Positions 16,584 through 44,671 of a stretch of DNA of 64,000 nt are shown here, in pieces. The stretch is from Candidatus Moraniibacteriota bacterium (GTDB lineage: Bacteria; Patescibacteriota; Minisyncoccia; Moranbacterales; UBA9337): positions 1,360-65,359 of the forward strand of contig JAOUHN010000001.1 in the NCBI GenBank assembly GCA_029865125.1. Direction: 5' to 3'. Within the stretch, counting starts at the first letter, position 1, and every line of letters starts with the position of its first letter. Made by a program: the position numbers and the translations under genes. The notes under the pieces are model-generated. The model was not told the DNA's origin, ran no database searches, and saw nothing but the letters and a program-made list of their open reading frames with translations.

Positions 16584-18152
16584 CTATTGATTCATATTCA
16601 TTTCTGCATTCATATTTTCATCCTCATCACTTTGCGTTGTATCAATGTTATCATTTGGCATTATTGTTTCATTCTCCACTTCAATAACAGGACTATCTAA
16701 AATAACAGGACTATCTAACATCCTATCAATAATCGCTCGCATGGAATTTTTGCTTGTTGCAATTACCAAATATCCGTTCATGAATGAATAATCAACAGAC
16801 AAAGCATTGTTCGTATCGATATTAAAATATCTGATATTCATTCCTCTATATTCACTATCAGAAAAGTTAATATTTTCTCCTGCAGAACTGAGCCCGGTAG
16901 CAAAAAACTCAGGAATCATACCAGGAATATCAGACTCTGATGCCATCAAAAGATTTTTTAGATCATTTTTATTTTCCTCTGTAACTTTCATGGAGATTGA
17001 TACTCTATCCACTCCATTGTCTCTAAATAAGAATAAGGAAAAATTATCAGTCAATTTCTCCATGGTTTGATCTGAAAAATTAAATTTTGTGATCGCAAAA
17101 AAATTGCCGAGTTTCATATCCGCATATTTGTTATCTGCCAAAACAAATTCAAATGGACCTGATTCACCAGCAGGAAATTCAGCAAATATTCTTTTTATTT
17201 CATTTCCTATGGTTTCACTCGTAGCAGCTTCAATGTCAACATTCAAATAATTTGGCATAGTAAGAGAATACTTGAATTCTTCTTTGACCACTTCTTCTTC
17301 TACTTCCTCGGTAACAGCTTCTTTTTCAACTGCAATTTCTTCAACTTCTGCACCCTTCATAAAATAGAAATAATATCCACCAAAAGCTGCTCCTCCCACA
17401 ATAATCAAAATTACAACACTCACAAAAACTTTTCTCCAACCAACTCTGGGACCTGGCTTGAATTCTTCTACTGGTTCCTGAGATGGAATGTCAACAACTT
17501 CAGCTCTCATTTCTACAGGTGCAGGAGTCGCCAATATTTCTTCTTTCTGTTCTGGCTTTACCGTTGATTGCAAATCATCACCAAAAGCCCCCACAAATCT
17601 TCCTGGTTCTTCTTTTCCAAATACACTTTTTTCTTCCACTGGAAGTTCTTCAGTAACTGACGGCTCTGGATAGGCTAAGATATCTTTCTCTGGAGAAATT
17701 TTCTCTTCTTCTGCAACTTCAACTGGCTCTAGTTTGGAAATATCTCTTGCTGATCTCATGTCCATAGATGGTGCAGGTTTTGGGCTCCACCCTGCTAATT
17801 CTGGCTCTTTTATTTCAGCTACTTCTTCGATTGGTTCTTCTTCTTTGATTTCTTGAGCAAATGGAGATTCTGCGCCAATAACTTCTTTTGTGCTCTCGAT
17901 TTCTCTTTCCAAAAATGGACTGTCTTGAGCAAGAACACCTTTGCCACCACCCATTTCTTCTGAAGTTCCTAGAGCACTCATTGAAGTTTCCGCGACTTCT
18001 CCTGAAGATATTTTTCCGCCTCCCTTAGTCACTTCCAAATCACTTTTCATGGTAAAAAATTTAACATCACTTGAATTGATTTTTTCATCTCCAGCTCCAA
18101 AAGGAGATTTGGAATCTCCTCGGGATTGTTTTATGTTTGAATTATTATCCAT
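16584..18152 (-). CDS. Hypothetical bitopic membrane protein (acidic Glu/Pro-rich N-terminal half, one TM helix, folded C-terminal domain)
   Basis: 522 aa with a TM helix VFVSVVILIIVGGAAFGGYYFYF. Internal in-frame duplication LDSPVILDSPVI arises from a 15-bp direct repeat. Confidence 0.6.
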   Translation of the reverse strand: MDNNSNIKQSRGDSKSPFGAGDEKINSSDVKFFTMKSDLEVTKGGGKISSGEVAETSMSALGTSEEMGGGKGVLAQDSPFLEREIESTKEVIGAESPFAQEIKEEEPIEEVAEIKEPELAGWSPKPAPSMDMRSARDISKLEPVEVAEEEKISPEKDILAYPEPSVTEELPVEEKSVFGKEEPGRFVGAFGDDLQSTVKPEQKEEILATPAPVEMRAEVVDIPSQEPVEEFKPGPRVGWRKVFVSVVILIIVGGAAFGGYYFYFMKGAEVEEIAVEKEAVTEEVEEEVVKEEFKYSLTMPNYLNVDIEAATSETIGNEIKRIFAEFPAGESGPFEFVLADNKYADMKLGNFFAITKFNFSDQTMEKLTDNFSLFLFRDNGVDRVSISMKVTEENKNDLKNLLMASESDIPGMIPEFFATGLSSAGENINFSDSEYRGMNIRYFNIDTNNALSVDYSFMNGYLVIATSKNSMRAIIDRMLDSPVILDSPVIEVENETIMPNDNIDTTQSDEDENMNAEMNMNQ

Positions 18153-27061: not shown

Positions 27062-27097
27062 AACAAAAAACACCCTGCTTTGTCGGGGTGTTTTTTG
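27062..27097. terminator. Bidirectional terminator (ACACCC-N9-GGGGTGT flanked by A and T runs)
   Basis: Directly readable from the sequence. Confidence 0.65.
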
Positions 27098-27115: not shown

Positions 27116-28291
27116 TTATTTCTCAGCCAATTTTCTTCTAAGTTCCTCTAATTCTGCCTCTTGTCGCGCAATTATTTCTTTCTTTTTCTTATCTTCTTTT
27201 TTTAGATTCTCATTTTCTTCAGTCAAGCTATCAATTTTTTCCTGATCACTTCTTCCGGAGCGATAAATTGACTCAGTGAGTCTTTCCTTTTCATCTTCTG
27301 ATTCAGCTCTTCTTTCTTGATCCTTTTCCTTATTAACACTCATTTCCTTATCAGAAATACTAATCATCTTTTCAATAACATTCACTAATAATTCCTCATA
27401 TCCTTTGCCTTCAATATTTTCACCATCTAAAACATCCCTCAAAGCATCCTTCAAAATTGCCACCCCACCGCTAATGCTCGCTTTGAAACGAAAATCCCGT
27501 GGCCACGAGTCTGTGTCGAAACCTATTTTATCATAGGCTGCTTTCTGTTCATCATTAGAAAAATCCTGAACATCATCCATATCCAAACTTCCAACGTCCT
27601 CTTGGATTTTTTCAATAACATATTCAATAAACGTCCTATCTTTCACATTTTCTCCATCTATTCCAACAAAATCACTTTTTTCATTGAGTGATTTGCTCGC
27701 CTTAATCGCACACATAAATTCATCTCCTGATCTTCTTGCTGGATAAAACTTAATTCCAGATTCTCTCAACCACATTGCAGTTTTCCCTCCATTGAAAACA
27801 TCCGCGATTTTTTTCAAGAACAAGTCACCCGCATCATGCTTTCCTAGTGCATGATCATTGACTGATTTGAGGCCATCCACGTCAAAAAAAATCATGGCGC
27901 TTTTGCTCAAATCCTCAAAAGATCCCTCCCTGCTTTCAATTAAGTTGTCATCTACAAGCTCCAGAAGCTCCGCTTTGAGAAAATTGAAATTGGCAATTCC
28001 AATTCGATCATCATAATAATTCGCAAGAGCGTCCAAAACAAACCATCTGGAAGTTTTTCGCAAAGCCCCTTCATTTACCTCCATCTCCCTTAGCTCTTTT
28101 ACCCTGTTACTAATAATCTCAACAGCCCCCTCAGGAAGACTACACCTTACTTCAAGATCCTTCAAAATCTTTTCAATTTTCACCTCTTCTCTATCCCTTT
28201 TCTTTGTCATCCCTTCAACTAACTGTTCTATTTTTTCATCTCTCTCGGGAACATTTTCTGCACTAGGCATCATTCCTTGTTCTTTCATCAT
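27116..28291 (-). CDS. GGDEF-like nucleotidyl cyclase domain protein with degenerate SGDEF motif, N-terminal helical domain and C-terminal coiled coil
   Basis: IFFDVDGLKSVND ... GKHDAGDLFL ... YPARRSGDEFMCAIK matches the GGDEF palm-domain order D-x-D-x-[FL]-K-x-x-N-D / GHxxGD / RxGG[DE]EF. The C-terminus is charged and heptad-repeat-like. Confidence 0.6.
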   Translation of the reverse strand: MMKEQGMMPSAENVPERDEKIEQLVEGMTKKRDREEVKIEKILKDLEVRCSLPEGAVEIISNRVKELREMEVNEGALRKTSRWFVLDALANYYDDRIGIANFNFLKAELLELVDDNLIESREGSFEDLSKSAMIFFDVDGLKSVNDHALGKHDAGDLFLKKIADVFNGGKTAMWLRESGIKFYPARRSGDEFMCAIKASKSLNEKSDFVGIDGENVKDRTFIEYVIEKIQEDVGSLDMDDVQDFSNDEQKAAYDKIGFDTDSWPRDFRFKASISGGVAILKDALRDVLDGENIEGKGYEELLVNVIEKMISISDKEMSVNKEKDQERRAESEDEKERLTESIYRSGRSDQEKIDSLTEENENLKKEDKKKKEIIARQEAELEELRRKLAEK

Positions 28292-28356
28292 ATTTTCTTA
28301 TTTTATCTTATCATTAATATTCTACCACAAAACGAAAATTTCAGTGATTCTAGGAC

Positions 28357-29250
28357 CTATCTCTTTGATTCAAGCACACCGTTTCTAGTGCTTCCATTTT
28401 TTCTCCATTCGCTACATTTCAAAACCTTGTCCCCACCCTGAAAACACTTATTATAGGAATCTAGACGACCCTCATACAAATAACTTTCTGCGTCAACAAT
28501 TTCCCCATGCATATACAAATGCCTCGAATCTTTCCCAAATGGCCCGCAAGCATCAAAAGTCCTGGCGTCAGCATTTTCAACTTTGACTCGACATCCCTCT
28601 GCTGTTTTTCCAATTTCTTCTGTTCCAATGTAATACACATTCTTTCCATCACTCGCATAATCATTGCTGCACTCAAACAAACTGAAGTTTTCAAGCAATG
28701 GGTATTGTTTGTTGTCACAATAATAATGTTTGTTGTCCAAACCACGATTAGACTCCGCATCCATCACAACAAAGGACTTCGGGTCAGAACCATCAAAAGC
28801 AATCAATTCTTTTGAATTATTCAAAAACACCTTGTCTCCATCATCAAAAAATGAATTGCATTTCCCTTCTCCCACCATGCTAAACTCAGAGGCCTCCACA
28901 TCGTCAACTACTGTCAACGCATTGAATACATATCCATTGCCATCACTTCTATCATCAAGAAAAAAAACTTTTTCATTGTCTCTTGCTATCATTCCACTGC
29001 AGCCAACCGCTTCAAATGAGTCCACTTGTGCTTGAGGAATGGTTTTGACAAGTGGCAACGCTGACTGCATGCCAAAACGACTCATGTCAAAATGAATCAG
29101 ATACCTGTCCACATAATACACCTTAAAAGAATCCTTATAATACCCTGCTTTTCCTATCTTCTCCTTGCCAAAAGGAGTGAAGACATAGGCAGCAACCAGT
29201 GCCACCACAGAGACCGCAATCAAATAGAACACCCATCCTCTTTTGTTCAT
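28357..29250 (-). CDS. Membrane-anchored DKNYY-type repeat protein
   Basis: N-terminal TM helix; repeated D(G)KN(V/Y)YY...ADxxTF units (DGKNVYYIGTEE..ADARTFDA; DNEKVFFLDD; GDKVFLNN; DNKHYYCDNK). Confidence 0.55.
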   Translation of the reverse strand: MNKRGWVFYLIAVSVVALVAAYVFTPFGKEKIGKAGYYKDSFKVYYVDRYLIHFDMSRFGMQSALPLVKTIPQAQVDSFEAVGCSGMIARDNEKVFFLDDRSDGNGYVFNALTVVDDVEASEFSMVGEGKCNSFFDDGDKVFLNNSKELIAFDGSDPKSFVVMDAESNRGLDNKHYYCDNKQYPLLENFSLFECSNDYASDGKNVYYIGTEEIGKTAEGCRVKVENADARTFDACGPFGKDSRHLYMHGEIVDAESYLYEGRLDSYNKCFQGGDKVLKCSEWRKNGSTRNGVLESKR

Positions 29251-29388
29251 AGCGAAAGATTTTAAATTTTACTTTTCTATTCTACCATAAAACGAAAAAC
29301 CGAGCATGAATGGTGTTGTTGACAAAAACTGAAATTTGTATATAATGAAGTGTAGCTTTTGTGGTTTTTTTATTACCCAAAAAATTAT

Positions 29389-29462
29389 AGCGGGGTGGAG
29401 CAGTCTGGCAGCTCGTGTGGCTCATAACCACAAGGTCGCAGGTTCGAATCCTGCCCCCGCAA
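29389..29462 (+). tRNA. tRNA with CAU anticodon (Met or Ile2-lysidine; A1·A72 mismatch, A11:U24)
   Basis: Acceptor AGCGGGG/CCCCGCA, anticodon arm TGTGG-CTCATAA-CCACA, T-arm GCAGG-TTCGAAT-CCTGC. Confidence 0.8.
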
Positions 29463-29518
29463 CACGAAGAATTGAGAGTGAGTTTTACAAGGAGTGAAAA
29501 ATACTCCTGGGCATATTT

Positions 29519-29592
29519 GCCAGGGTAGCTCAGTTGGTTAGAGCGCGGGACTCATAAGCCCGAGGTCGTGAGTTCAACTCTCACTCCTGGTA
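29519..29592 (+). tRNA. Second tRNA with CAU anticodon
   Basis: GCCAGGG-TA-GCTC-AGTTGGTTA-GAGC-G-CGGGA-CTCATAA-GCCCG-AGGTC-GTGAG-TTCAACT-CTCAC-TCCTGGT-A. Confidence 0.8.
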
Positions 29593-29595
29593 CAA

Positions 29596-29668
29596 AAAAC
29601 ATACAGCACATAACATGCAACATGCAGCAATTTTTTTGTTCTATGTTTCATGAGATGTGTTTCATGAA
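29596..29668. repeat. Heptanucleotide array between tRNAs (both orientations)
   Basis: AAAACAT ACAGCAC ATAACAT GCAACAT GCAGCAA ... ATGTTTC ATGAGAT GTGTTTC ATGAATA. Confidence 0.7.
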
Positions 29669-29675
29669 TAAACAC

Positions 29676-29749
29676 GGGGGCGTAGCTCAGCTGGTTAGAG
29701 CGATTGCCTGTCACGCAATAGGTCGAGGGTTCGAGTCCCTTCGCTCCCG
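29676..29749 (+). tRNA. tRNA-Asp (anticodon GUC)
   Basis: GGGGGCG-TA-GCTC-AGCTGGTTAG-AGC-G-ATTGC-CTGTCAC-GCAAT-AGGTC-GAGGG-TTCGAGT-CCCTT-CGCTCCC-G; discriminator G. Confidence 0.85.
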
Positions 29750-29945
29750 CAGAAGAAACTTGAAACAGAGTCGCCTTAGCTCTGTTTTAAGTTTTCTATT
29801 AGACAGAAAAGGATGAAAAGGGTATTTTAAAAAGACACCTGATCCTTTTCTTCAAGCATCCATAAGGTAAAAGCTCTTTGTAATAGAAAAGGTTTTTAGT
29901 TAGTAGCTATTGTCATCCTTTATTATCAACAGTGAAAAGACACAT

Positions 29946-30428
29946 TTAGCAAAAAATGCTTCCCATTATGTTCTGAAAAAAAACTAACTTATTTTTATAA
30001 AAAACCTGCTCCTTAGCAATGAAATAGCTCCAGTCACCATTTTTTTCAAAGACGTATTTCCAATCCTCAATTTCATATTTTTCAGGACCTCTAAGAGGAT
30101 TATTTTCATCAGTATTTCTAAGGGCTTCTTTTAGAAAAGCATAAGATTGATCTGGTTTTACTAAATCGTTTTCAATAAATTGTCCTTGATAAGCCATTGT
30201 CCAAAATGGCTTATTTTTATAGAAAACAATCTCTTTTCCGGGTGGAAAAATGTGGCCAGAATAGCTATCGTAATAAAGCCAATCATCTTTGGAAAATGAA
30301 TATTCAGTGTGTCCCAACATCTTTACCTTCTTACATCTGGTTAATGCTCTGTCTTCATCGGTTCCGGCATAAGTTTTTGAATGAGCTAAAAATAAAAATT
30401 TTTTAAACGCAGCTTCTTTTTTTATCAT
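29946..30428 (-). CDS. Hypothetical protein (160 aa, Trp/Tyr-rich)
   Basis: ORF only; divergent from the radical SAM operon. Confidence 0.45.
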   Translation of the reverse strand: MIKKEAAFKKFLFLAHSKTYAGTDEDRALTRCKKVKMLGHTEYSFSKDDWLYYDSYSGHIFPPGKEIVFYKNKPFWTMAYQGQFIENDLVKPDQSYAFLKEALRNTDENNPLRGPEKYEIEDWKYVFEKNGDWSYFIAKEQVFYKNKLVFFQNIMGSIFC

Positions 30429-30554
30429 TGACTTAGATTGAATTTAATGCTATATTTTTTTATCGAGCTCCTTAAGCCCGATAGTATCTTAATAATAGAA
30501 TAAACGTGAGAATAAGGCAATAAGCCAAAAACAAAGTCTTAGAGGAGATGATTT

Positions 30555-31523
30555 ATGACGAAACGAAAGAATGTGGTATGGAACTTAACTAAACTGTGTC
30601 CATTTGGATGCACCTTCTGCTGTGTGTCAGCAACTTACGTTAAAGGTTTTAAACAAGTTTTTTCTGTCAATGATGATACGCCTGTGATTGAAAGTGAATT
30701 ATCCTTCAACAAACAGTTGCAAGTAATTGATCAATTGGATGCTGAAAAGTTTAGGATCGACTTTTCAGGAGGAGATGTATTGATAAATCCACGAAACATT
30801 GATCTAATTATCTTGGCGTCTGAAAAATTTGGAGCGGAAAATATTGGGTTAAGCATCCCTGGCACATTTACAACTCCAAATAATTTAAGTAAGTTAACTG
30901 GAAGGATTAATGATGTTGAGATTACGATGGATACTACGCCGGATATAAATTATTCTTATCGTCCGCTAAATTATGCTGAACACGCTTCTGATGCTATAGC
31001 AAGATTGGTAGACGCAGGATTTTTTGTTGGAGTACAAACCGTGTTGCGCAGGGAAAATATGTTTAAAGAGACGATTAAAAGACTACACAAGCACTTATTG
31101 CTGCTTGGGGTAAAAAAATGGAGTTTTTTAAAATTTGCTCCTGTGGGAAGAGGCTATAGTAAGTGTGAAAATCATCCCAGTGACGAAGAATACCGTAAAT
31201 TTTCTGACGTCATAAAACACGTAACCCTGAACTCAATGATTGAGGTACATTATCAATACCTGATGCCGTTGAGTCCTGCAAGAGACTTTTATTGTCGTGC
31301 AATTAAAGATTCTATCGGCATTGCGCCAGACGGGACTGTAAGTTCTTGCTTTTGGGCTTTTAATCAAAATGGAAAACCTTTTGATGATGTTGTGTTAGGC
31401 AAGGTTCCAGAGGATAACATCCTTGATATTTTGAAATCTGAAAAAGCAAGAGAATGGCTTTCATATGGTAAAACCAAAAATTATTGTCCCCTTAAAAAAA
31501 TTCTCAGAGGAGGAGTGATATGA
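30555..31523 (+). CDS. Radical SAM enzyme (CxxxCxxC) with C-terminal Cys-containing SPASM/twitch-like region
   Basis: N-terminal LCPFGCTFCC (Cx3Cx2C), FSGGDVL (GGE-like SAM motif), and C-terminal SSCFWAF...NYCP. 322 aa. Confidence 0.75.
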   Translation: MTKRKNVVWNLTKLCPFGCTFCCVSATYVKGFKQVFSVNDDTPVIESELSFNKQLQVIDQLDAEKFRIDFSGGDVLINPRNIDLIILASEKFGAENIGLSIPGTFTTPNNLSKLTGRINDVEITMDTTPDINYSYRPLNYAEHASDAIARLVDAGFFVGVQTVLRRENMFKETIKRLHKHLLLLGVKKWSFLKFAPVGRGYSKCENHPSDEEYRKFSDVIKHVTLNSMIEVHYQYLMPLSPARDFYCRAIKDSIGIAPDGTVSSCFWAFNQNGKPFDDVVLGKVPEDNILDILKSEKAREWLSYGKTKNYCPLKKILRGGVI

Positions 31524-32494
31524 ATTATGCATTGATGACTTTTCTTTACAATTTTTTTGACCTAGGTTGCTTTTTATGGAGCATGCAACTTTTCGGACTA
31601 AAAGAAGGGTCCATTATTTTTGTCTTTGCAAAAATTGGAAGACTCTCTGTAGAAACCATCAAAGTAAAGTCGTTCCACATTGTTTTTGGAGTATTCTTCT
31701 TCGGAATAGTTTTGGGAATAATCTCCGTGTACACTACCTGGTTATTTACTTGCCTAGGAGCCCCTTTTGTTATATTTGGCATATCCAAAATAAGGGAATA
31801 TTTTGGGATATTAGAAAAACCGCCCAGAAGGTACAAAATACTATCCAGAATGGTAGGGTTTTGTTTGGCTCCACTATTTAACTTTTGGGTTTTAATTCCA
31901 TTTTTTTGCTATTTAGCTTTTAGCTTGCGCAATCAAAATGAGATTAAAAGTGAGAGGAGAGCACCCCTTTTCCCTTATTTAGAACAACACGAATGGCAAT
32001 ATACATTACTAATCACTCATCAGATTCATTATTTTGCATACGCATTTCTGGTGCCGTACACAGCATGTGCCATTTTCAACGTAAATATCATGTTTGCTGG
32101 AATCATTTTTTTTATTGGTTGGGGCGCATATAACCTGTACGAAAAAATTCTAGCGCATAAATTAAAATACGTTGCTTATGGGCACTTCATTGCCGGATTT
32201 GGAGTTTGCATCATATTATTCTTTCAGCAAAGCTTACTGGCGTTAATTATCGGTTGGTTTATAACTGGAATTGGTGGTGGAACTTTTTATATTATAAAAA
32301 GTAAGCTACCAGATGACATCGGGAAAGCAGAAGTTGTAGAGCTTTGGGGTCAGTTACTCGGAATGGCCTTATTTGCTATAGGAGTAAATTTCGCAAATAG
32401 TAGTTATCTCTATTTTTCTGCTATAATATTTGCAACCGCAACATCCGTAATCGCATTATTTTTAGAGAAAGACTATGTCAGAAATAACAGCTAA
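31520..32494 (+). CDS. Polytopic membrane protein (8-10 TM helices), unknown function
   Basis: Start overlaps the upstream stop (ATGA) and its 3' end overlaps the next gene by 20 nt, indicating translational coupling. Confidence 0.6.
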   Translation: MNYALMTFLYNFFDLGCFLWSMQLFGLKEGSIIFVFAKIGRLSVETIKVKSFHIVFGVFFFGIVLGIISVYTTWLFTCLGAPFVIFGISKIREYFGILEKPPRRYKILSRMVGFCLAPLFNFWVLIPFFCYLAFSLRNQNEIKSERRAPLFPYLEQHEWQYTLLITHQIHYFAYAFLVPYTACAIFNVNIMFAGIIFFIGWGAYNLYEKILAHKLKYVAYGHFIAGFGVCIILFFQQSLLALIIGWFITGIGGGTFYIIKSKLPDDIGKAEVVELWGQLLGMALFAIGVNFANSSYLYFSAIIFATATSVIALFLEKDYVRNNS

Positions 32495-33275
32495 AACAAT
32501 AATTACCAAGAGTAAGCTTCCAGAAGTGGACTACTGTTTTAATCCCTACATCGGCTGTACTCATCGTTGTGCCTATTGCTATGCCAGGTTTATGAGTAGA
32601 TTCACTGGGCACACAAACGAAAAATGGGGCACCTATCTGGATTGGAAGATTAATGCCCCAGAACTCTTAAGAGAGGAGGCTTCTCGAATCAAAAAAAAGG
32701 GCGGTGTGGTTATTCTTGGCAGTGTAACTGATTGCTATCAACCCATAGAAAGCAAGCTTGAGTTGACACGTAAGTGTCTGGAAGTGTTTTTGGAATACCA
32801 GATCCCAATTTCTATCCTTACAAAAAGTAGTCTGGTTGAGCGAGATTTTGACTTACTCAGTCAGCTTAAATATTGTGAGATAGGGATTAGCTTAAGTATT
32901 CTTAACAAAGAACAACAAAAAGCTCTCGAGCCCGGAGCTTCGAGTCCAATGGAGCGAATTAGGGTTCTGAAAAGAGCTTTCGATTTAGGCTTAAACACCT
33001 ATGCCTTTATTGGGCCAATTCATCCATTCCTTGGAGAAACGGAGAAGGTTATTAGGGAAGTTTGTCCATATGTTAATTTCATTATGGGTGAAATTCCAAA
33101 TCTCCGTTGTGGCAACTGGAAAGACTTTAGTCAAACATTGAAAGAGCTAAAGATTAATCCAGTAGATTATAGAAAAGTCGCCGAAAGCGATGAATTTTAT
33201 AAAAAAGCCGATGGACTGCTTAAAAAATTGTGCGAAGAATGTTCCGTAGAATATAGAGGCACATTTAAGCACTAG
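32475..33275 (+). CDS. SplB-family (DNA-repair-photolyase-like, COG1533-type) radical SAM protein
   Basis: FNPYIGCTHRCAYCYARF matches the NPYxGCxxxCxYC[YF]A signature. 266 aa. Confidence 0.75.
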   Translation: MSEITAKTIITKSKLPEVDYCFNPYIGCTHRCAYCYARFMSRFTGHTNEKWGTYLDWKINAPELLREEASRIKKKGGVVILGSVTDCYQPIESKLELTRKCLEVFLEYQIPISILTKSSLVERDFDLLSQLKYCEIGISLSILNKEQQKALEPGASSPMERIRVLKRAFDLGLNTYAFIGPIHPFLGETEKVIREVCPYVNFIMGEIPNLRCGNWKDFSQTLKELKINPVDYRKVAESDEFYKKADGLLKKLCEECSVEYRGTFKH

Positions 33276-35055: not shown

Positions 35056-36216
35056 ATGAAAACTTTTTTACTTCGTTATCAAAAAAAAATCGTCTTCTCT
35101 GCGCTAGCTTTATTATTGCTTGCGCTTTTTGGCATTGGCGCTTTTTGGGTTGATTCCAAAACTCACCCTTTTTCTTCCAAGCAACAATCCATTGAAAATA
35201 CTCAGGTCGATTCACCCAGCATAACTCCTGAAATTGAGATCCTCCCCTCAACACCCGAAGCTCCTGAAGAATCAATGGATGCTCCAACTGAAGAATTAGT
35301 GGAAGAATCAACCGAGGAGACTACTCTTGAAAATGAAGAGGGAGAAGAAGAATTGGCAACCACAGAGGAGCTAGAAATGTTGCCACCTGTCACAAAAACT
35401 CATGGATCAGACGAACTTCGAATTGGTTTTTTGACGGATCTTCATGCAAGATCCAATGCTGGGATTCCAGAATCTAATCGAGTCATCAAGCCATTCTTTA
35501 AAAACATAATCACTTCTTTTGTCACACAAATGAATAATGATTTCGGGGCTGACTTCTTGCTTCTCAATGGAGATGTAATTGAAGGAACAGGAAGAAATGC
35601 CACTGTTGGAATGGGCGAGTTGAAATCACTGAAAAAATTGTTCGATCTCACTCAAATCAAAAAATATTGGGTCATCGGGAATCACGATGTTCGCGCTGTG
35701 AACAAAAAACAATGGCAGCAAGCACTTGAAATTGACTATTTGTACGACTACTTTGATAAAGGTGACTACAGAATCATCATGCTGGATAGTAATTTTGATG
35801 ACCTAGACAAAAACATCGCACCTGGAGATTATTTTACTCGAGGAGGTGTTTCTCAAAAACAACTTCAATGGCTAGAAAGAGCTTTGGACACAAAAAAAAC
35901 AAAGATTGTTTTCATGCACCACCCTCCGCTTAAAAATATCGGGATTCATCCTGATTCAGGATTACTCTACAATGCCCCTGAGCTTCAAGAGATCTTTTCA
36001 AAAAACGAAGTAACCGCTGTATTTTTCGGACATCTTGAATATTCCTATCAAAGCGAAGTGAATGGTGTCAAATATTTCATGATTCCCGGCGCCACAAAAA
36101 ATGAGAACTACCAAGGAACTTTTGCAGAAATCAAAATCAAAAACCAGACTATTGAACTAACTCTCAACTATCTCGACAAAAGTGGATTCTATAAATCAAA
36201 AAAGGTTTTTAACTAA
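35056..36216 (+). CDS. Calcineurin-like metallophosphoesterase with N-terminal signal-anchor
   Basis: Motifs GFLTDLHAR (GDxH), LLNGDVIEG (GDxx), VIGNHDV (GNH[DE]), FMHHPP and FGHLEY. Start taken at MKTFLL (ATG 35056). Confidence 0.8.
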   Translation: MKTFLLRYQKKIVFSALALLLLALFGIGAFWVDSKTHPFSSKQQSIENTQVDSPSITPEIEILPSTPEAPEESMDAPTEELVEESTEETTLENEEGEEELATTEELEMLPPVTKTHGSDELRIGFLTDLHARSNAGIPESNRVIKPFFKNIITSFVTQMNNDFGADFLLLNGDVIEGTGRNATVGMGELKSLKKLFDLTQIKKYWVIGNHDVRAVNKKQWQQALEIDYLYDYFDKGDYRIIMLDSNFDDLDKNIAPGDYFTRGGVSQKQLQWLERALDTKKTKIVFMHHPPLKNIGIHPDSGLLYNAPELQEIFSKNEVTAVFFGHLEYSYQSEVNGVKYFMIPGATKNENYQGTFAEIKIKNQTIELTLNYLDKSGFYKSKKVFN

Positions 36217-36235
36217 ACCCACCTCTATTTCAGTT

Positions 36236-36272
36236 TAAACAAAAACAAGGTTTTACACCTTGTTTTTGTTTT
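36236..36272. terminator. Bidirectional terminator (ACAAGGT-TTTAC-ACCTTGT)
   Basis: Lies between the convergent phosphoesterase and pilC. Confidence 0.65.
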
Positions 36273-36291
36273 TCCAAAAATATTTTTCAAT

Positions 36292-37512
36292 CTAATTAAT
36301 GTTTTCCATAAGACCATACATTGGTTGAAGCATGGCTACTGCAAAGAATCCAACGGCACTTCCCATGACAACCATAAGCACTGGCTCGATCACAGAAGAA
36401 AGGTTTTTTGTGATCTGATTTACTTCCTCCTCATAGAACTCCGCTAATTTCAAAAACATAGACTCACTTTTTCCTGTCTCTTCTCCAACCTCAGCCATTT
36501 GACCCACCAATGGAGGAAATATTTTCTTGTTCGAATTGATAATACTACTCAAAGAAACACCTTTTTGAATGTCTTCGGAAGCTTTGGCTAAAACACTCTT
36601 ATATTCATAATTTGAAAGAGTATTAGAAATAATGTCTAGCGCATCAAGAACTGACACACCACTCTTGAGAAGAGAGCTATAGATTCTGGAAAATCTAGCA
36701 CAATTCACCTTAATAACAATATTCTTCGTTATTGGAGCATTCAACACCAAAAAGCTCAGTGTTTTTTTTCCAGGAACGGTTCCCAAAAAAATTTTCAAAA
36801 ATATTCCTCCGACTACAACCGCAATGGCAATAGCAACGAGATTATTTCTGAGCAGATCACTCGCATCCACAATGAATTGAGTGCTGGCTGGAAGCTCTAC
36901 ATCCATGTCAGCAAATACTCCTGTGATTTTAGGAAGAATATACGTGAGCATCAAAACTCCAACACCACTCATAGCCACAACAATCACAGCTGGATACATC
37001 ATCGCCCCCTTCACTTTGCTCCGAAGCGCGCTTTCTTTTTCAAGCTGAATTGCAACAATTGTGAGTACTTCTTCCAAATTTCCTCCGATTTCTCCAACTC
37101 GCACCATGTTTACAAATAAATCATCAAACGCGTTTGGATGTTCTGCCATTGATTCACTCAAACTTTTTCCCGCTTGAATGTCTTTATACATCTTTGCCAG
37201 GATTCCTTTGAAAGTCTTGTTCTGTACCTGAACTGAAAGATTGTCCAATGCTTTTCCGATGCTGAGCCCTGATTCAACCATCACGGCAAGATTTCTTGCA
37301 AATATCATCTTTTCCTTAAGCGGAACAGAAAACAAATTGAAATTCATCTTAGTTTTGATTCCTTTTTCCTGGTCTTTAGACTCTTGAATTGAAGTCACCA
37401 AAAAACCCTCGGCCTTAATTTGAGCAACCGCTGATTGTTCAGTTTTTGCTACGATTTCTCCCCCTTTGGTCTTTCCATCATAGCTTTTTGCTGTATACAA
37501 AAACTTTGCCAT
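36292..37512 (-). CDS. pilC: Type IV pilus / T2SS inner-membrane platform protein (PilC/GspF family)
   Basis: Two GspF-type repeats with three TM helices. 406 aa. Confidence 0.9.
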   Translation of the reverse strand: MAKFLYTAKSYDGKTKGGEIVAKTEQSAVAQIKAEGFLVTSIQESKDQEKGIKTKMNFNLFSVPLKEKMIFARNLAVMVESGLSIGKALDNLSVQVQNKTFKGILAKMYKDIQAGKSLSESMAEHPNAFDDLFVNMVRVGEIGGNLEEVLTIVAIQLEKESALRSKVKGAMMYPAVIVVAMSGVGVLMLTYILPKITGVFADMDVELPASTQFIVDASDLLRNNLVAIAIAVVVGGIFLKIFLGTVPGKKTLSFLVLNAPITKNIVIKVNCARFSRIYSSLLKSGVSVLDALDIISNTLSNYEYKSVLAKASEDIQKGVSLSSIINSNKKIFPPLVGQMAEVGEETGKSESMFLKLAEFYEEEVNQITKNLSSVIEPVLMVVMGSAVGFFAVAMLQPMYGLMENIN

Positions 37513-37533
37513 ATTTTTTTACCCTACACTAAA

Positions 37534-39318
37534 TTATTCCTTTGTTACTCTCAACACCTCTTCTACGGAAGTAATTCCTTGAAGTGCTTTCAAAAATCCG
37601 TCTTCAACCATGGTTGACATTCCATTTTCTTTAGCTTGCTTCTCAATAACTTCCGTTGCAGCGGCCTGTGAAACCAATTTTCTAATCGATTCATCCATTT
37701 CCAAAACCTCATAGATTCCCATTCTTCCTTTATATCCGTCACTACATCTCTCACATCCTTTTTTCCTAAAAAAACTAACCGTTGTCCATGTGTCTTTTGG
37801 TTTTATCTTTCCCTTGAGCGCATCAGCACTCTTAACAAATTCTAGAATTTCATCCATATTATAACTATCTCGAAGTGTAGCAAGTTCTTTTTCGTTTATC
37901 TTATATTCTTCGCGACATTCTGGACATAGTTTTCGAACCAAACGTTGCGCGATTATAACATTTACCGTTGAAGCTACCAAAAAGGGCTCCGCACCCATAT
38001 CCAAAAGACGAGGAAGTGTAGCTGCAGCACTATTTGTGTGAAGAGTGGAGAGAACCAAATGACCTGTCATAGCAGCATGCATGGCAATTTCCATAGTTTC
38101 TTGATCGCGAATTTCTCCAACCATGATAATATCCGGATCTTGACGAAGAAGCGAACGCAAAGTAGCTGCAAAAGTAAGATTTATCTTAGGCTTAATTTGA
38201 GTTTGATTCACTCCGCTCATTCGATATTCAACAGGATCTTCCGCAGTACTAATGTTTACTTCAGGAACATTCAAAATATCCAAAACGGTATACAGAGTGG
38301 TTGTTTTTCCGGATCCCGTAGGTCCAGTCACCAAAATCATTCCGTTTGGCTTATTAATTTCTCTATGAATAATCTCAAGTGGTCTTGGCTGAAATCCCAT
38401 CATTTCCAAAGTGAGACCCTTGGAAGACTCATCCAAAAGACGCATTACGATCTTTTCTCCATCAAAAATAGGAAGGATGCTAACACGAAAAGAAATTTTA
38501 TACCCCTCTTTTTCAATTTTAAATCTTCCGTCTTGAGGAAGTCTGTGTTCATCTAACTTTAAGTTAGATAAAACCTTAATTCTCGCTACAATTCCCGGCA
38601 AAACCTGCTTTGGAAGAGTCATGGCTTCGTGCAAAATTCCATCAATACGATAACGAACGCGCACTTCTTTTTCATCTGGCTCAATGTGAATATCACTTGC
38701 TGACTGCAAAATAGCATGCTTAAGAAGTGTGTCCACCACACGCACAACAGGAAGATCTTCTGCAACCTTTGCCAAATTTTGATCCTTATCATCACCTTCC
38801 TCATCACCTTCTTTGCGAATACCTGTTGTAACTCCCTCCAAATCCTGCGAATCAGTGTCGATAATATCTCCAAATTCTGCTTTTAAACTCTTTTCATATT
38901 GCTTAATCGCAGCCTCTAGCGCTTCTCTTGAAGCAATACAAGGAACGATTTTGAGTCCTGTCTTTTTCTTAATAAAATCAATGGTTTGCAAGTCATCCGG
39001 GTGAAGCATTGCCACTCTCAATTCTCCTCCTGTCTTTTCAAATGCAACAATGTTGTGTTTTTTTGCAATGGGCTCAGGAATAATTTGCAAAATTTCCGGA
39101 TCAATTTGATTTTTTCCCAAATCGACATATGGAATTCCCAAAATATAAGCACGCATTTTCCCCAACTCTGCCTCATCCACAAGCTCCGCTTCCAGCAACA
39201 AGTCACCGAGTTGCTTCCCGGTTTTTTCTGCATCTTGAAATTTTTGCTCCAAAACCTTCGGATCTACTAATTCTGCATCCAAAAGGAATTCTTTTAACTG
39301 TTGATTTCCGATTCTCAT
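37534..39318 (-). CDS. pilB: Type IV pilus assembly ATPase (PilB/GspE family)
   Basis: Walker A GPTGSGKTTTLY, Asp and His boxes, tetracysteine CPEC...CERC, and an N-terminal GSPII domain. 594 aa. Confidence 0.95.
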   Translation of the reverse strand: MRIGNQQLKEFLLDAELVDPKVLEQKFQDAEKTGKQLGDLLLEAELVDEAELGKMRAYILGIPYVDLGKNQIDPEILQIIPEPIAKKHNIVAFEKTGGELRVAMLHPDDLQTIDFIKKKTGLKIVPCIASREALEAAIKQYEKSLKAEFGDIIDTDSQDLEGVTTGIRKEGDEEGDDKDQNLAKVAEDLPVVRVVDTLLKHAILQSASDIHIEPDEKEVRVRYRIDGILHEAMTLPKQVLPGIVARIKVLSNLKLDEHRLPQDGRFKIEKEGYKISFRVSILPIFDGEKIVMRLLDESSKGLTLEMMGFQPRPLEIIHREINKPNGMILVTGPTGSGKTTTLYTVLDILNVPEVNISTAEDPVEYRMSGVNQTQIKPKINLTFAATLRSLLRQDPDIIMVGEIRDQETMEIAMHAAMTGHLVLSTLHTNSAAATLPRLLDMGAEPFLVASTVNVIIAQRLVRKLCPECREEYKINEKELATLRDSYNMDEILEFVKSADALKGKIKPKDTWTTVSFFRKKGCERCSDGYKGRMGIYEVLEMDESIRKLVSQAAATEVIEKQAKENGMSTMVEDGFLKALQGITSVEEVLRVTKE

Positions 39319-39379
39319 TTTGTTTTTATTTTTTTATAAGATGCCGATATGTGTCTAGAATAGCTTGCATTTGCAAAAA

Positions 39380-39751
39380 CTAACTCATGATGGATCTTAT
39401 TTTTTCCACAATTTCTTGCAACTTATAATCTCCTTTTACTAAATAGTTAGTAGCACCGAGCTCCAGTGCTTTCTCAATATTATCTAAACCAGCCAAATTA
39501 GTCAGAATTACAACAGGAATATCTTTGATTTTCTCATCTTTTTTTATTTCCGCCAAAACTTCATATCCATTCTTTCGAGGAAGCACAATATCAAGCAAAA
39601 TCAAATCAGGCAACTCTTTCTTTGCAACCTTAACTCCCATTTCACCATCTGATGCAGCCATTGCTTCGAAATCTTCTTTTTTCAAAAATTCCATCAATGT
39701 ATCTCTCAGTATAGCGTCATCTTCTATTAACAATATTTTATTTTTTTTCAT
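39380..39751 (-). CDS. Stand-alone response-regulator receiver (CheY-like)
   Basis: ILLIEDD...DLILLDIVLP...K; 123 aa with no output domain. Confidence 0.85.
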   Translation of the reverse strand: MKKNKILLIEDDAILRDTLMEFLKKEDFEAMAASDGEMGVKVAKKELPDLILLDIVLPRKNGYEVLAEIKKDEKIKDIPVVILTNLAGLDNIEKALELGATNYLVKGDYKLQEIVEKIRSIMS

Positions 39752-39759
39752 ATTTTTCC

Positions 39760-40725
39760 TTATCTCTGGGCATCTTTCTTATTTATTGGAAAAGAAAAGC
39801 AAAACAAACTTCCCACATGTTCAATTGACTTGAACCACATATCACCACCAGATTGATCGATTGTATTTTTAGCAATATATAACCCCAATCCAGTTCCTGA
39901 TGTTCGAAGCTTCACTGCATTCTCACTTCTAAAAAACTTTTCAAAAATGTTATCCTGCTGATCTTCTGGGATTCCTACTCCATTATCCTTCACGCAGCAA
40001 ACAACTTTATTTTTTTCTTTTCTCAAAGTCACCTCAACAAAGCCGTCTCGATCCGCATATTTAATCGCATTGGAAATTAAATTTTCAATTACAATTGCAA
40101 TTCTTCTCTTATCTCCCGTAATAGACGGAATTTCTTTGTCAATAATCACATTTATCTTAGCCCCGAATTTTTTGGCCAAATCCTTATTATTCGCAACTAC
40201 CTCTTCAACAAGCTTATCTAATTCTATTTTTTCATTTGCCAAAAAAAGGTTTCCTTGATCAATTCGAGCAACATCCAGCAGGTCTTTCACAAGTCGACTC
40301 ATTTCATCATTAGCAGAAACAATCCTGCTAATAATCTTTTCTTGTTCCTCATTCAATCCCTCTCTGTGCTTGAGAAGCAACAACTCAGCTGCCCAACTCA
40401 CTTTGGAAAGTGGAGTTTTCAATTGATGAGAAGCAATGGAAACAAATTCTGACTTCATCTTATTTGCCTGCGCTACCACTTCAAAATTTCGAATAACCAC
40501 ACTACCTAGAGCAAAAATAATCGCAACTGTCAAAGCTTCCGTAACCACTAGTGTTTCTACGGATCTATTGTCTCGAAGAAGATAATATAAAATCAACATT
40601 GAAGAAATACTCACCACTCCCATCATGATAAACATGAGGCTCGGAGCTTGCCAAACGCTTACTCCAAGATTTTCTGCCTGCTTTTTTATATTAAACTCAT
40701 TTGCAAGTCTTCGTGCTAATTTCAT
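39760..40725 (-). CDS. Membrane sensor histidine kinase
   Basis: H-box SHQLKTPLS, N-box, G-boxes DNGVGIP and GTGLGLYIAK; two N-terminal TM helices. Confidence 0.85.
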   Translation of the reverse strand: MKLARRLANEFNIKKQAENLGVSVWQAPSLMFIMMGVVSISSMLILYYLLRDNRSVETLVVTEALTVAIIFALGSVVIRNFEVVAQANKMKSEFVSIASHQLKTPLSKVSWAAELLLLKHREGLNEEQEKIISRIVSANDEMSRLVKDLLDVARIDQGNLFLANEKIELDKLVEEVVANNKDLAKKFGAKINVIIDKEIPSITGDKRRIAIVIENLISNAIKYADRDGFVEVTLRKEKNKVVCCVKDNGVGIPEDQQDNIFEKFFRSENAVKLRTSGTGLGLYIAKNTIDQSGGDMWFKSIEHVGSLFCFSFPINKKDAQR

Positions 40726-40894
40726 TTATTTTTGTTTTTATTTTTATCTCTCGCTAATATCACCCGTTCAATTTTTTCATGCTATGTTATGAAAATATTA
40801 TACCACAATTTTATTTAAAAACATAACACAAAAAAATCCCTTGCTAGCAAGCAAGGGATTTTTTGTTTTCCATTTTCTTTTTTAGATCTCAAGA

Positions 40895-42583
<1,689 letters not shown>

Positions 42584-42588
42584 TTACT

Positions 42589-42615
42589 TTAGCACTCTTG
42601 CTTTCCAAGTGCTAA
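42589..42615 (-). promoter_or_regulatory. CIRCE element (HrcA operator), TTAGCACTT-N9-GAGTGCTAA on the groEL strand
   Basis: Reverse strand reads TTAGCACTT GGAAAGCAA GAGTGCTAA, 38 nt upstream of the groEL start. Confidence 0.85.
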
Positions 42616-42660
42616 TTCATATTATTAAATTTTATTTTTCTCGTCAAGAAGGCTCTGGAA

Positions 42661-42692
42661 ACATGAAGCATAGAGCATAAAACATGGAACAC
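42661..42692. repeat. Heptanucleotide array (reverse orientation)
   Basis: ACATGAAGCATAGAGCATAAAACATGGAACAC. Confidence 0.55.
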
Positions 42693-42744
42693 AAATCAAA
42701 ACTCATCAGTTAGCTTACACGTACGTGCTGCATATCCTATACTA

Positions 42745-42753
42745 CCCCCCCCC
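42745..42753. repeat. C9 homopolymer tract
   Basis: Nine consecutive C in an AT-rich intergenic region. Confidence 0.9.
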
Positions 42754-42773
42754 AATCAACTTTGCAGACCTCA

Positions 42774-42860
42774 ATAACTTTACGGACTTTATGGACTTTA
42801 CGGACTTTATGGACTTTACGGACTTTACGGACTTCCAGGACTTTATGGACCTTACGAACC
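42774..42860. repeat. 9-bp tandem repeat (ACTTTAYGG), about 9 units
   Basis: actttacgg actttatgg actttacgg actttatgg actttacgg actttacgg acttccagg actttatgg accttacga. Confidence 0.9.
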
Positions 42861-42863
42861 CTA

Positions 42864-43916
42864 TTATTGTCCCACTCTAAATTCAATAACGTCTCCATCT
42901 GCAACAACATAGTCCTTTCCGACTGACTTCAATTTTCCAACCTCTTTTGCTTTTGATCGAGAACCGGCTTTCATTAAATCATCAAAAGAGACCACTTCTG
43001 CACAAATAAACTTATCTTTAAAATCATTGTGAATTGCAGTCCCGGCTTCTGGAGCGGTCCATCCTTTTTTGATTGTCCATGCTCTTGTTTCCATTTTTCC
43101 TGTAGTAAGAAAAGTGATGAGTCCCAAAAGCTCATAAGACTTAACGATCAAATTATCCATATTTGAACTCAATCCCAACTCTTCCTTCTCTTCGTGAGTC
43201 ATCTCATCCAATTCTTCTTCCAGTTTAATATCCAGCTTCACATGCGGTCTGTTTTCTAGCTCATCTCCGAGCTTTATATCAATATCAGAAACATTATAAA
43301 CATACAAAAACGGCTTTATTGTGAGAAGCGCCAATTCTCTCACTGCAATTTTTGTAAATTCATCTTTCATGTTTAATTCGGCTTTATTTGCCAACTTTCC
43401 AGTTTCAAGCACAGCCTTTATTCCCTTGGTCACTTCCAATTTTGCATTCGCTTCTTTGTCCCCAGTCTTTGCTTCTCTTTCAAGCCTTTCAATTCTCTTG
43501 TTGACTGTTTCAAGATCAGCCAAAATGAGCTCTGTGTTGATCACATCAATGTCATCCACCGGATCAATTTTGTTGTGAACATGTATGATATTTGGATTTT
43601 CAAAAACACGCACAACTTCAACAATTGCGTCAACTTCGCGGATGTTAGCCAAAAACTTATTTCCAAGACCTTCTCCTTCAGAGGCCCCTTTCACAAGTCC
43701 TGCAATGTCCACAAATTCAACAATAGCCGGCACAAGCTTTTCACTCCCAGACATCGCTGAAAGCTTAGCCAATCTTTCATCTGGAACCTCAACAACGCCT
43801 ACATTTGGTTCAATGGTGCAAAAAGGATAATTATTAATATCAACAGCTTTTTTGGTCAAAACCTTAAACAGCGTAGACTTTCCAACATTTGGAAGTCCAA
43901 CAATTCCAATTTTCAT
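42864..43916 (-). CDS. ychF: Ribosome-binding ATPase YchF (Obg-family GTPase with C-terminal TGS domain)
   Basis: G1 [15 protein letters not shown]4 NKID, and the C-terminal TGS/MoaD-like ...[15 protein letters not shown] at 43916. Confidence 0.9.
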
Positions 43917-44002
43917 ATATATCAAATTTAAAATTTAAAATTCTCAATTTAAAATCAATTTTCAAATTCTCTAATTTTCAATTGATCATTATTGAGGATC
44001 TC

Positions 44003-44662: not shown

Positions 44663-44671
44663 ATACTTTCT

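What the first reader, a model, noticed from the sequence alone, without database searches (positions are those of the whole stretch)
27116..28291. GGDEF-like cyclase with SGDEF motif in a reduced-genome context
The palm-domain motif order is D-V-D-G-L-K-x-x-N-D, then G-K-H-D-A-G-D, then A-R-R-S-G-D-E-F. The first glycine of GGDEF is replaced by Ser. The domain is flanked by an N-terminal helical region and a charged coiled-coil tail, with no obvious sensor or TM segment. c-di-GMP signalling components are sparse in such small genomes. No PilZ or EAL/HD-GYP partner is visible in this window.
Basis: partly seen in the sequence, partly recalled or inferred. Interest (0 to 1): 0.5.

Follow-up and report, generated by a model that had tools for sequence, protein, structure and literature searches.

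The report
Divergent SGDEF diguanylate cyclase, Moranbacteria
The gene encodes a genuine but very divergent GGDEF-type enzyme, most likely a maker of the bacterial signal c-di-GMP, from a small protein family found mainly in ultra-small Patescibacteria; it is a new member of a well-known enzyme class, not a new kind of system.

Summary
ORF 27116-28291 (-) encodes a 391-aa soluble protein with DVDGLKSVND (137-146), GKHDAGD (150-156) and ARRSGDEF (185-192) in that order.

The interpretation also holds, though sequence alone is weak. Pfam GGDEF scores 21.5 bits, below its 23.8 cut-off, and single-sequence PDB search finds nothing significant. The case rests on three other results:
- A profile of 85 relatives hits only GGDEF cyclases in the PDB (best E 2e-11).
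- The metal, guanine and phosphate residues D137, N145, E191 and K321 are invariant in the family; D156 is kept in 70/85.

Ser at the first motif position is invariant in close homologs and has active precedents (ECA3270, MbaA). There is no RxxD I-site, TM segment or known sensor domain.

The organism is a Candidatus Moranbacteria MAG. The family has about 145 clusters at 50% identity, and the named members are mostly Patescibacteria.

No EAL, HD-GYP or PilZ lies on about 77 kb of the contig. A PilB with an MshEN-family N-domain lies 9 kb away, but it fails the c-di-GMP-binding motif.

Verdict: a likely active, stand-alone diguanylate cyclase of modest interest.

The parts
27116..28291 (-). 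Complete gene for the 391-aa SGDEF protein (OEV93_00150)
   Evidence: ORF list. The identical protein is in public records from two samples.
28016..28261 (-). N-terminal four-helix region (residues 11-92), no match to any Pfam family; candidate regulatory or interaction module
   Evidence: AlphaFold helices 11-34, 39-48, 54-69 and 74-92. Conserved positions among close homologs include L43, E47, P53, A56, I60, R63 and D87. No Pfam hit.
27926..27988 (-). Helix 102-122 immediately before the GGDEF core, in the position of the dimerising stalk helix of other cyclases
   Evidence: AlphaFold model. The best Foldseek hit is the stalk-plus-GGDEF protein SiaD, and coiled-coil DgcB also matches.
27302..27919 (-). 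GGDEF-fold catalytic domain (residues ~125-330)
27854..27883 (-). DVDGLKSVND (137-146): metal-binding D137, K142, guanine-reading N145
   Evidence: D137 and N145 are kept in 85/85 family members, K142 in 84/85 and D146 in 82/85. The motif aligns with DLAGFKAIND of the T. maritima cyclase 4urs.
27824..27844 (-). GKHDAGD (150-156): H152, G155 and the second guanine-reading residue D156
   Evidence: G155 in 85/85, H152 in 76/85, D156 in 70/85 with N 9, T 5 and Q 1 in the rest.
27716..27739 (-). ARRSGDEF (185-192): active-site hairpin with Ser188 in place of the first Gly
   Evidence: G189 and E191 in 85/85, D190 in 84/85, F192 in 79/85. Position 188 is G 52, S 23, H 5, T 3, A 2. It is invariant Ser in the close homologs.
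27632..27700 (-). Family-specific beta-hairpin insertion after the SGDEF strand (residues ~198-220, DFVGIDGE motif)
   Evidence: Model strands 205-209 and 215-220. K205, D207, F208 and G210-E214 are invariant in close homologs.
27464..27478 (-). SISGG (272-276), the counterpart of the canonical T-v-S-i-G strand
   Evidence: S274 in 75/85 and G276 in 81/85. Model strand 272-279.
27317..27355 (-). SDKEMSVNKEKDQ (313-325): counterpart of the canonical ADxxxYxAKxxGR helix. K321 is the phosphate-binding Lys. Q325 sits where relatives have Lys.
   Evidence: K321 in 85/85, D314 in 74/85. Position 325 is K in 75/85 and Q in the query. HMMER aligns this stretch with ADMRMYKAKEM of 4urs, though at a sub-significant domain score of -1.9.
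27122..27247 (-). Charged C-terminal helix (349-390), a coiled coil or single helix, not conserved across the family
   Evidence: Model helix 349-390. SYNZIP1-like at E 0.015. It is absent from or replaced in homologs P0004-P0007.
27064..27090 (-). Terminator-like hairpin (CACCC-loop-GGGTG plus a T-run) 26 nt after the stop codon
   Evidence: Read directly from the sequence.
28319..28327 (-). Extended -10-like element TGGTAGAAT, 28 nt upstream of the ATG
   Evidence: Read directly from the sequence. Inference only; the scan lists a different, weak 9/12 site at 28314-28287.

Best explanation
The gene encodes a stand-alone cytoplasmic diguanylate cyclase from a divergent GGDEF subfamily that is centred on Patescibacteria.

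Proposed mechanism:
- Each GGDEF domain binds one GTP with Mg2+. D137 and E191 hold the metal and D190 acts in catalysis.
- N145 and D156 read the guanine. K321 contacts the phosphates.
- Two domains, brought together by the helix before the domain (102-122) and perhaps by the C-terminal helix, join two GTP into c-di-GMP.
- Ser188 replaces the first Gly of the motif without abolishing activity.
- There is no RxxD I-site, so the product does not feed back allosterically.
- Control would come from the uncharacterised N-terminal four-helix region, from a partner protein, or from expression of what looks like a monocistronic gene.

What is shown: the fold, the motif order and the residue conservation. 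What is inferred: catalysis, dimerisation, the product and the regulation. The downstream receptor is unknown.
For: Fold:
- The AlphaFold model has pLDDT 90.2 and pTM 0.84.
- The Foldseek top 50 hits are all GGDEF cyclases.

Sequence:
- Pfam GGDEF E 2.2e-4, and several NCBIfam diguanylate cyclase models hit the same stretch.
- The 85-member family profile hits 42 PDB chains, all GGDEF, best E 2e-11.
- 64 of 85 members match PF00990.

Catalytic residues:
- D137, N145, G155, G189, E191 and K321 are invariant in 85 members that are only 22-48% identical.
- K142, D146 and D190 are above 95%. D156 is at 82%.
- This pattern indicates selection for nucleotide chemistry.

The guanine-specifying N145/D156 pair is intact in the query.

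SGDEF has active precedents: ECA3270 (PMC3974145) and MbaA (PMC8079147).

The gene is cellular. It sits among housekeeping genes (gyrA, PNPase, GroEL, FtsH) in a Moranbacteria MAG.
Against: - No activity data exist for any member of this family.
- The query scores below the curated cut-offs of Pfam (21.5 against 23.8) and TIGR00254 (21.5 against 37.4).
- The first Gly is replaced. The reverse change (A to S) inactivated V. cholerae VCA0965, so tolerance depends on context.
- Position 325 is Lys in 75/85 relatives and in all six close homologs, and is the counterpart of the second phosphate-binding basic residue. It is Gln in this protein.
- No phosphodiesterase or proven receptor was found on about 77 kb of the contig.
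- The nearby PilB N-domain fails the c-di-GMP motif.
- Dimerisation is not tested.
Confidence: 0.6

Rival explanations
1. It is a catalytically dead GGDEF domain that serves as a scaffold, a GTP sensor or a protein-interaction module, as in other degenerate GGDEF proteins.
For: - The motif is non-canonical (SGDEF). Q325 sits where the family has Lys.
- The protein scores below the Pfam and TIGRFAM thresholds.
- No partner enzymes or receptors were seen on the contig.
- Long helical flanks would suit a scaffold.
Against: - Every residue needed for metal, base and phosphate binding except position 325 is retained, and these residues are invariant across a family that has diverged to about 22% identity. 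Dead domains usually lose them.
- There is no RxxD I-site through which a degenerate domain would bind c-di-GMP.
- SGDEF enzymes are active in two studied cases.
Confidence: 0.17
2. It is an active GGDEF-fold enzyme that makes a different product, such as cGAMP or c-di-AMP as Hypr-GGDEF enzymes do, or a linear dinucleotide.
For: - The subfamily is very divergent and carries its own conserved motifs (GLK, DF, IPxxFKF, YRxGR) and a hairpin insertion.
- In 15 of 85 members the D156 position is N, T or Q. In Hypr-GGDEF enzymes this position is changed to Ser to relax base specificity (established knowledge, from memory).
- The first motif position varies among G, S, H, T and A.
Against: - The query itself keeps both guanine-reading residues, N145 and D156.
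- All its structural neighbours are c-di-GMP enzymes.
- Nothing in the sequence points to adenine recognition.
Confidence: 0.12
3. It is a non-GGDEF palm-domain protein, such as a class III adenylyl/guanylyl cyclase, a Cas10 or mCpol-like oligoadenylate synthase, or a polymerase palm, and only mimics the motif.
For: Single-sequence searches are weak: phmmer against the PDB gives no significant GGDEF hit, and Pfam is below threshold.
Against: - The profile search hits GGDEF only.
- There is no PADLOC defence-system match and no CRISPR or defence context.
Confidence: 0.02

Closest known systems
GGDEF-domain diguanylate cyclases (Pfam PF00990; e.g. PleD, WspR, T. maritima TM1788, DgcZ)
   Different: - Ser replaces the first Gly, and GLK replaces the usual xFK.
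- Two residues are inserted before H152.
- A roughly 20-residue beta-hairpin insertion follows the SGDEF strand, and the loop before the SxG strand is longer.
- There is no RxxD I-site.
- Gln sits at the second basic phosphate position.
- The protein scores below curated model cut-offs.
Active SGDEF enzymes: Pectobacterium atrosepticum ECA3270 and Vibrio cholerae MbaA
   Same: They share the first-position Gly-to-Ser substitution in an otherwise intact active-site motif. Both are reported to synthesise c-di-GMP (PMC3974145; PMC8079147).
   Different: MbaA is a membrane-embedded polyamine receptor with a periplasmic domain and an EVL (EAL) domain; the architecture of ECA3270 was not examined here. 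The present protein is soluble, has no recognisable sensor domain and has no EAL domain. No sequence comparison with either protein was made here.
Stalk or coiled-coil GGDEF cyclases (P. aeruginosa SiaD 7e6g, C. crescentus DgcB 6ttr, GCN4-WspR fusion 3i5c)
   Same: A long helix directly precedes the GGDEF domain. These proteins are among the best structural matches. In them the helix dimerises and sets the catalytic geometry (established knowledge).
   Different: This protein has an additional four-helix N-terminal region with no known family. It also has a second, C-terminal charged helix that is missing from several close homologs.

Membership tests
GGDEF domain / diguanylate cyclase (PF00990, TIGR00254) | Score at or above the curated model cut-off | tested here: not met
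   PF00990 scores 21.5 bits against a gathering score of 23.8, covering profile positions 30-93 of 161. TIGR00254 scores 21.5 against 37.4. The E-values (about 2e-4) are still suggestive, and 64/85 family members match PF00990 at E<=0.01, best 2e-11.
GGDEF domain / diguanylate cyclase (PF00990, TIGR00254) | GGDEF fold (palm-like beta-alpha-alpha-beta-beta-alpha-beta core with the motif on a beta-hairpin) | tested here: met
GGDEF domain / diguanylate cyclase (PF00990, TIGR00254) | Active-site motif GG[D/E]EF | tested here: inconclusive
   The motif is SGDEF. G189, D190, E191 and F192 are kept and the first Gly is Ser. This variant is known to be active in ECA3270 and MbaA, but tolerance depends on context.
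GGDEF domain / diguanylate cyclase (PF00990, TIGR00254) | Metal-binding acidic residues (PleD D327 and E370/E371 equivalents) | tested here: met
   D137 and E191 are kept in 85/85 and D190 in 84/85. The alignment to the solved cyclase 4urs places D137 on the DLAGFK Asp. PleD numbering is from memory.
GGDEF domain / diguanylate cyclase (PF00990, TIGR00254) | Guanine-specifying Asn and Asp (PleD N335 and D344 equivalents) | tested here: met
   N145 is kept in 85/85. D156 is present in the query and in 70/85 members.
GGDEF domain / diguanylate cyclase (PF00990, TIGR00254) | Phosphate-binding Lys and Arg on the C-terminal helix (PleD K442 and R446 equivalents) | tested here: inconclusive
   K321 is kept in 85/85. 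Position 325 is Lys in 75/85 and in all six close homologs, but Gln in the query.
GGDEF domain / diguanylate cyclase (PF00990, TIGR00254) | RxxD allosteric I-site five residues before the motif (common, not obligatory) | tested here: not met
   The sequence before the motif is ESGIKFYPARRSGDEF, with no RxxD. The family consensus also lacks it.
GGDEF domain / diguanylate cyclase (PF00990, TIGR00254) | Synthesis of c-di-GMP from two GTP by a dimer | not testable with these tools
   This needs an enzyme assay or heterologous expression. Oligomeric state was not predicted.
MshEN-type c-di-GMP receptor (for the nearby PilB, 37534-39318 -) | Two 24-residue motifs RLGxxLLxxGLLxxxxLxxxLxxQ separated by 5 residues | tested here: not met
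   The Pfam MshEN domain is present (69.8 bits) and the 24+5+24 layout is recognisable. Each half matches only 7 of 11 positions of the relaxed motif from PMC5013675: Arg is Gln in both halves, the turn Gly is Glu in both, and the final Gln is Ala or Ile.

The most novel reading that the evidence does not exclude
This GGDEF clade is centred on Patescibacteria and has no recognisable sensor domain. Its members largely fall below curated model cut-offs, and their first motif residue drifts among G, S, H, T and A. The novel reading is that this clade is the principal cyclic-dinucleotide synthase of many ultra-small episymbiotic bacteria, that it signals through a receptor that is not PilZ, canonical MshEN or EAL (for example the divergent PilB N-domain that drives type IV pili and host attachment), and that some members make a product other than c-di-GMP.
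Probability: 0.1. Interest if true: 0.55.

Novelty: new member of a known kind. Interest (0 to 1): 0.28.

Why it matters
The family falls at or below the thresholds of Pfam and NCBIfam, and most members are labelled hypothetical. Censuses of c-di-GMP signalling in Patescibacteria therefore probably undercount cyclases.

If the enzyme is active, it gives a handle on second-messenger control in organisms with roughly 1-Mb genomes that depend on attaching to hosts. It also adds natural S, H and T variants at the first GGDEF position for structure-function work. Beyond that, it is an ordinary member of one of the most abundant bacterial signalling families.

Tried and rejected
- **PADLOC defence models:** only noise (E 0.035), so there is no defence-system reading.
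- **Single-sequence phmmer against the PDB:** no significant GGDEF hit. Only the coiled-coil tail scored, against SYNZIP1 at E 0.015.
- **Second word-indexed homolog search with the 85-sequence profile:** it added only one protein, P0081, and was largely wasted.
- **The search for related loci with the broad alignment:** The narrower alignment used the pattern [ILF][FY]FD[VLI]DGLK, so it sampled only the DxDGLK sub-clade. Most of the 80 loci returned were canonical GGDEF genes with partial matches.
- **afdb50 fold library:** not available.
- **Conserved operon partner:** none found. Only the MFS transporter and an RRM protein are shared with the closest long contig (L001), which is ordinary synteny between relatives. 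The 134-aa ORF downstream has no counterpart there.
- **The nearby PilB as an MshEN-type c-di-GMP receptor:** the domain is present but the binding motif is not.
- **An apparent 9/11 match starting at residue 2 (RIG...):** rejected as out of register with the helix-turn-helix layout.
- **DHH motif at about 61486:** the 278-aa ORF has no Pfam match, so it is not a recognisable pGpG or cyclic-dinucleotide phosphodiesterase.

Full report
**1. The observation**

The window holds an ATG-started ORF of 391 codons at 27116..28291 on the minus strand. The identical protein is deposited as hypothetical protein OEV93_00150 of a Candidatus Moranbacteria MAG and was assembled from two independent samples.

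- Two further GGDEF-type motifs follow: SISGG (272-276) and SDKEMSVNKEKDQ (313-325).
- No segment is hydrophobic enough for a membrane helix (highest 19-residue Kyte-Doolittle mean 0.70).
- The tail is 26% Glu and 16% Lys.
- The window is chromosomal DNA of a small-genome bacterium. It carries gyrA, PNPase, GroEL, a YchF GTPase and tRNA synthetases; FtsH lies on the adjoining part of the contig. GC content is 38%.

**2. Is it a GGDEF domain?**

Sequence evidence from the single protein is weak.
- Pfam GGDEF gives 21.5 bits (E 2.2e-4), below the 23.8 gathering score, and covers only profile positions 30-93.
- TIGR00254 is also below its cut-off.
- phmmer against all PDB sequences gives no significant cyclase hit.

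Three independent lines settle the matter.
- **Family evidence.** An exhaustive phmmer search of 1.8 billion representatives found 145 clusters at E<=1e-3 and 81 at E<=1e-10. Most are 320-450 aa and match over nearly full length. A profile of 85 of them hits 42 PDB sequences, every one a GGDEF protein, best E 2e-11 to the Thermotoga maritima cyclase. 64 of the 85 match PF00990 individually.
- **Model quality.** An AlphaFold model built on that alignment is confident (pLDDT 90.2, pTM 0.84).

**3. Is the active site intact?**

The 85 family members are only 22-48% identical to the query. Conservation at the key positions is as follows:

| Position | Conservation | Role (PleD equivalent, numbering from memory) |
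|---|---|---|
| D137 | 85/85 | metal (D327) |
| K142 | 84/85 | K332 |
| N145 | 85/85 | guanine (N335) |
| D146 | 82/85 | |
| G155 | 85/85 | |
| D156 | 70/85 (N 9, T 5, Q 1) | guanine (D344) |
| G189 | 85/85 | motif |
| D190 | 84/85 | catalysis (E370) |
| E191 | 85/85 | metal (E371) |
| F192 | 79/85 | motif |
| G276 | 81/85 | |
| K321 | 85/85 | phosphate (K442) |

The HMMER alignment to the solved T. maritima enzyme supports these equivalences for the N-terminal half of the domain. It places FDLNGLKAVND on VDLAGFKAIND and GGDEF on GGDEF. It also places SDkrMkenK on ADMRMYKAK, but that second stretch scores below significance (-1.9).

The second refutation condition, loss of the metal-binding Asp, is not met either.

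Two deviations remain.
- Position 188 is Ser. It is invariant in the seven close homologs. Family-wide it is G 52, S 23, H 5, T 3 and A 2.
- Position 325, the counterpart of the second basic phosphate ligand, is Lys in 75/85 members and in all six close homologs but Gln in this protein.

There is no RxxD I-site before the motif.

The literature shows that SGDEF can be active. ECA3270 of Pectobacterium atrosepticum retains cyclase activity (PMC3974145). The SGDEF domain of V. cholerae MbaA is required for c-di-GMP synthesis in vivo (PMC8079147). The same paper on VCA0965 notes that an A-to-S change inactivated that enzyme, so tolerance depends on context.

**4. Anatomy**

From the model:
- four N-terminal helices (11-92) with no Pfam match;
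- a short strand (99-101);
- a helix (102-122) that leads directly into the GGDEF core, in the position of the dimerising stalk helix of SiaD, DgcB and WspR-type enzymes, which are among the best structural matches;
- the core (about 125-330), which contains a family-specific beta-hairpin insertion (205-220, conserved DFxGIDGE) and a longer loop with a conserved DVQDFS;
- a short helix carrying a conserved IYRxGR;
- a 42-residue charged helix (349-390).

The last helix is not a family feature. P0005 and P0007 stop before it, and P0004 and P0006 have a short CxxC tail instead.

**5. Context**

The gene looks monocistronic. A TGGTAGAAT element lies 28 nt before the ATG, and a CACCC/GGGTG hairpin with a T-run follows the stop codon. 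Both were read and are inference.

Neighbours:
- a DKNYY-family membrane-anchored protein upstream;
- a 134-aa orphan ORF and an MFS transporter downstream.

Only the MFS and an RRM protein recur next to the closest long-contig homolog, which is ordinary synteny. No conserved partner gene emerged.

No EAL, HD-GYP or PilZ was found in the window or on about 77 of the 81.8 kb of the contig.

About 9 kb away lies a histidine kinase, response regulator, PilB and PilC cluster. Its PilB has a Pfam MshEN-family N-domain. The published c-di-GMP-binding motif is two 24-residue RLGxxLLxxGLLxxxxLxxxLxxQ units with a 5-residue spacer (PMC5013675). The layout is recognisable here, but each half matches only 7 of 11 positions of the authors' relaxed motif: the stacking Arg, the turn Gly and the terminal Gln are all replaced. 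This PilB is therefore at best an unproven candidate receptor.

**6. Distribution**

Named relatives are from the Patescibacteria group, Moranbacteria or unclassified MAGs. Among GTDB species representatives, full-length relatives were found in:
- a Patescibacteria single-cell genome;
- a Moraniibacteriota MAG;
- another Patescibacteria MAG;
- three low-GC (30-37%) contigs binned as Gammaproteobacteria, Bdellovibrionales and Micavibrio.

That scan used a narrow peptide pattern, so the survey is incomplete.

c-di-GMP enzymes are not unheard of in this radiation. Diguanylate cyclase genes were reported as enriched in sediment-attached ultra-small MAGs (PMC9938205). The contig of homolog P0007 also carries a canonical MASE3-PAS-GGDEF protein.

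**7. Interpretation**

| Explanation | Confidence |
|---|---|
| Active stand-alone diguanylate cyclase that dimerises through its flanking helices and is not feedback-inhibited | 0.60 |
| Catalytically dead scaffold or sensor domain | 0.17 |
| Active enzyme with an altered product | 0.12 |
| Non-GGDEF palm protein | 0.02 |

- The dead-domain reading is disfavoured by the invariance of the catalytic residues and the absence of an I-site.
- The altered-product reading is hinted at by N, T or Q at the D156 position in 15/85 relatives and by HGDEF/TGDEF variants, but the query itself keeps N145 and D156.
- The non-GGDEF reading is effectively excluded.

**8. Novelty and score**

The kind of thing, a GGDEF diguanylate cyclase including the SGDEF variant, is well known. 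What is new is membership. This is an uncharacterised, very divergent subfamily centred on Patescibacteria, with its own N-terminal module and insertions, and it escapes curated models. I rate it a new member of a known kind with modest interest (0.28). Its main practical consequence is that c-di-GMP censuses in ultra-small bacteria likely undercount cyclases.

Noticed in passing
window 29946-33275; L083 3251-5467: A DUF5680 gene, a radical-SAM/SPASM gene, a 324-aa protein with no Pfam match and a second radical-SAM gene lie about 2-5 kb from the SGDEF gene. Two radical-SAM genes plus DUF5680 also lie about 3 kb from a distant (27% identical) family member in another Patescibacteria genome. 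This may be deep synteny or a functional link.
   Followed up: partly
window 36292-40725 (-): A cluster of histidine kinase, response regulator, PilB-type ATPase (MshEN-family N-domain) and PilC. A response-regulator, PilB and PilC arrangement also lies about 6 kb from the homolog in L001. The PilB N-terminus keeps the 24+5+24 layout but not the c-di-GMP-contacting residues.
   Followed up: yes
L006 5512-7101; L007 2688-4286: More distant family members carry HGDEF (PAHHHGDEF / PTHHHGDEF), with His at the first motif position. Others carry TGDEF or AGDEF. 15 of 85 members have N, T or Q at the guanine-reading D156 position.
   Followed up: partly
L005 3955-7173: A 224-kb contig binned as 'uncultured Gammaproteobacteria' (locus GC 37%) carries two tandem paralogs of this family. 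Contigs binned as Bdellovibrionales and Micavibrio (30-31% GC) also carry members. This could be real occurrence in predatory or host-associated lineages, or mis-binning.
   Followed up: no
window 29389-29750 (+): A cluster of two tRNA-Met (CAT) genes and one tRNA-Asp gene sits between the DKNYY gene and the DUF5680 gene. A perfect TTGACA-16-TATAAT promoter-like site lies just upstream at 29319-29346.
   Followed up: no
window 28357-29250 (-): The gene immediately upstream encodes a 297-aa DKNYY-family protein with a hydrophobic N-terminal segment. It ends 65 nt before the SGDEF start codon. It is not conserved next to homologs.
   Followed up: partly
alignment A1, C-termini of P0004 and P0006: Two close homologs replace the charged C-terminal helix with a short CxxC tail (CPVCGNKIRR, CPQCGYDAKS). 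Two others lack any tail.
   Followed up: no
window 6001-30000 and 36001-50000: GC skew is strongly negative (-0.2 to -0.35) across most of the window. This coincides with long runs of minus-strand genes.
   Followed up: no
window 16584-18152 (-), 57229-59261 (-), 60896-61732 (-): Several sizeable ORFs (522, 292, 385 and 278 aa) have no significant Pfam match or only a very weak one. A 760-aa gene with no Pfam entry overlaps the window's right end, at about 63681-65963 (-).
   Followed up: no
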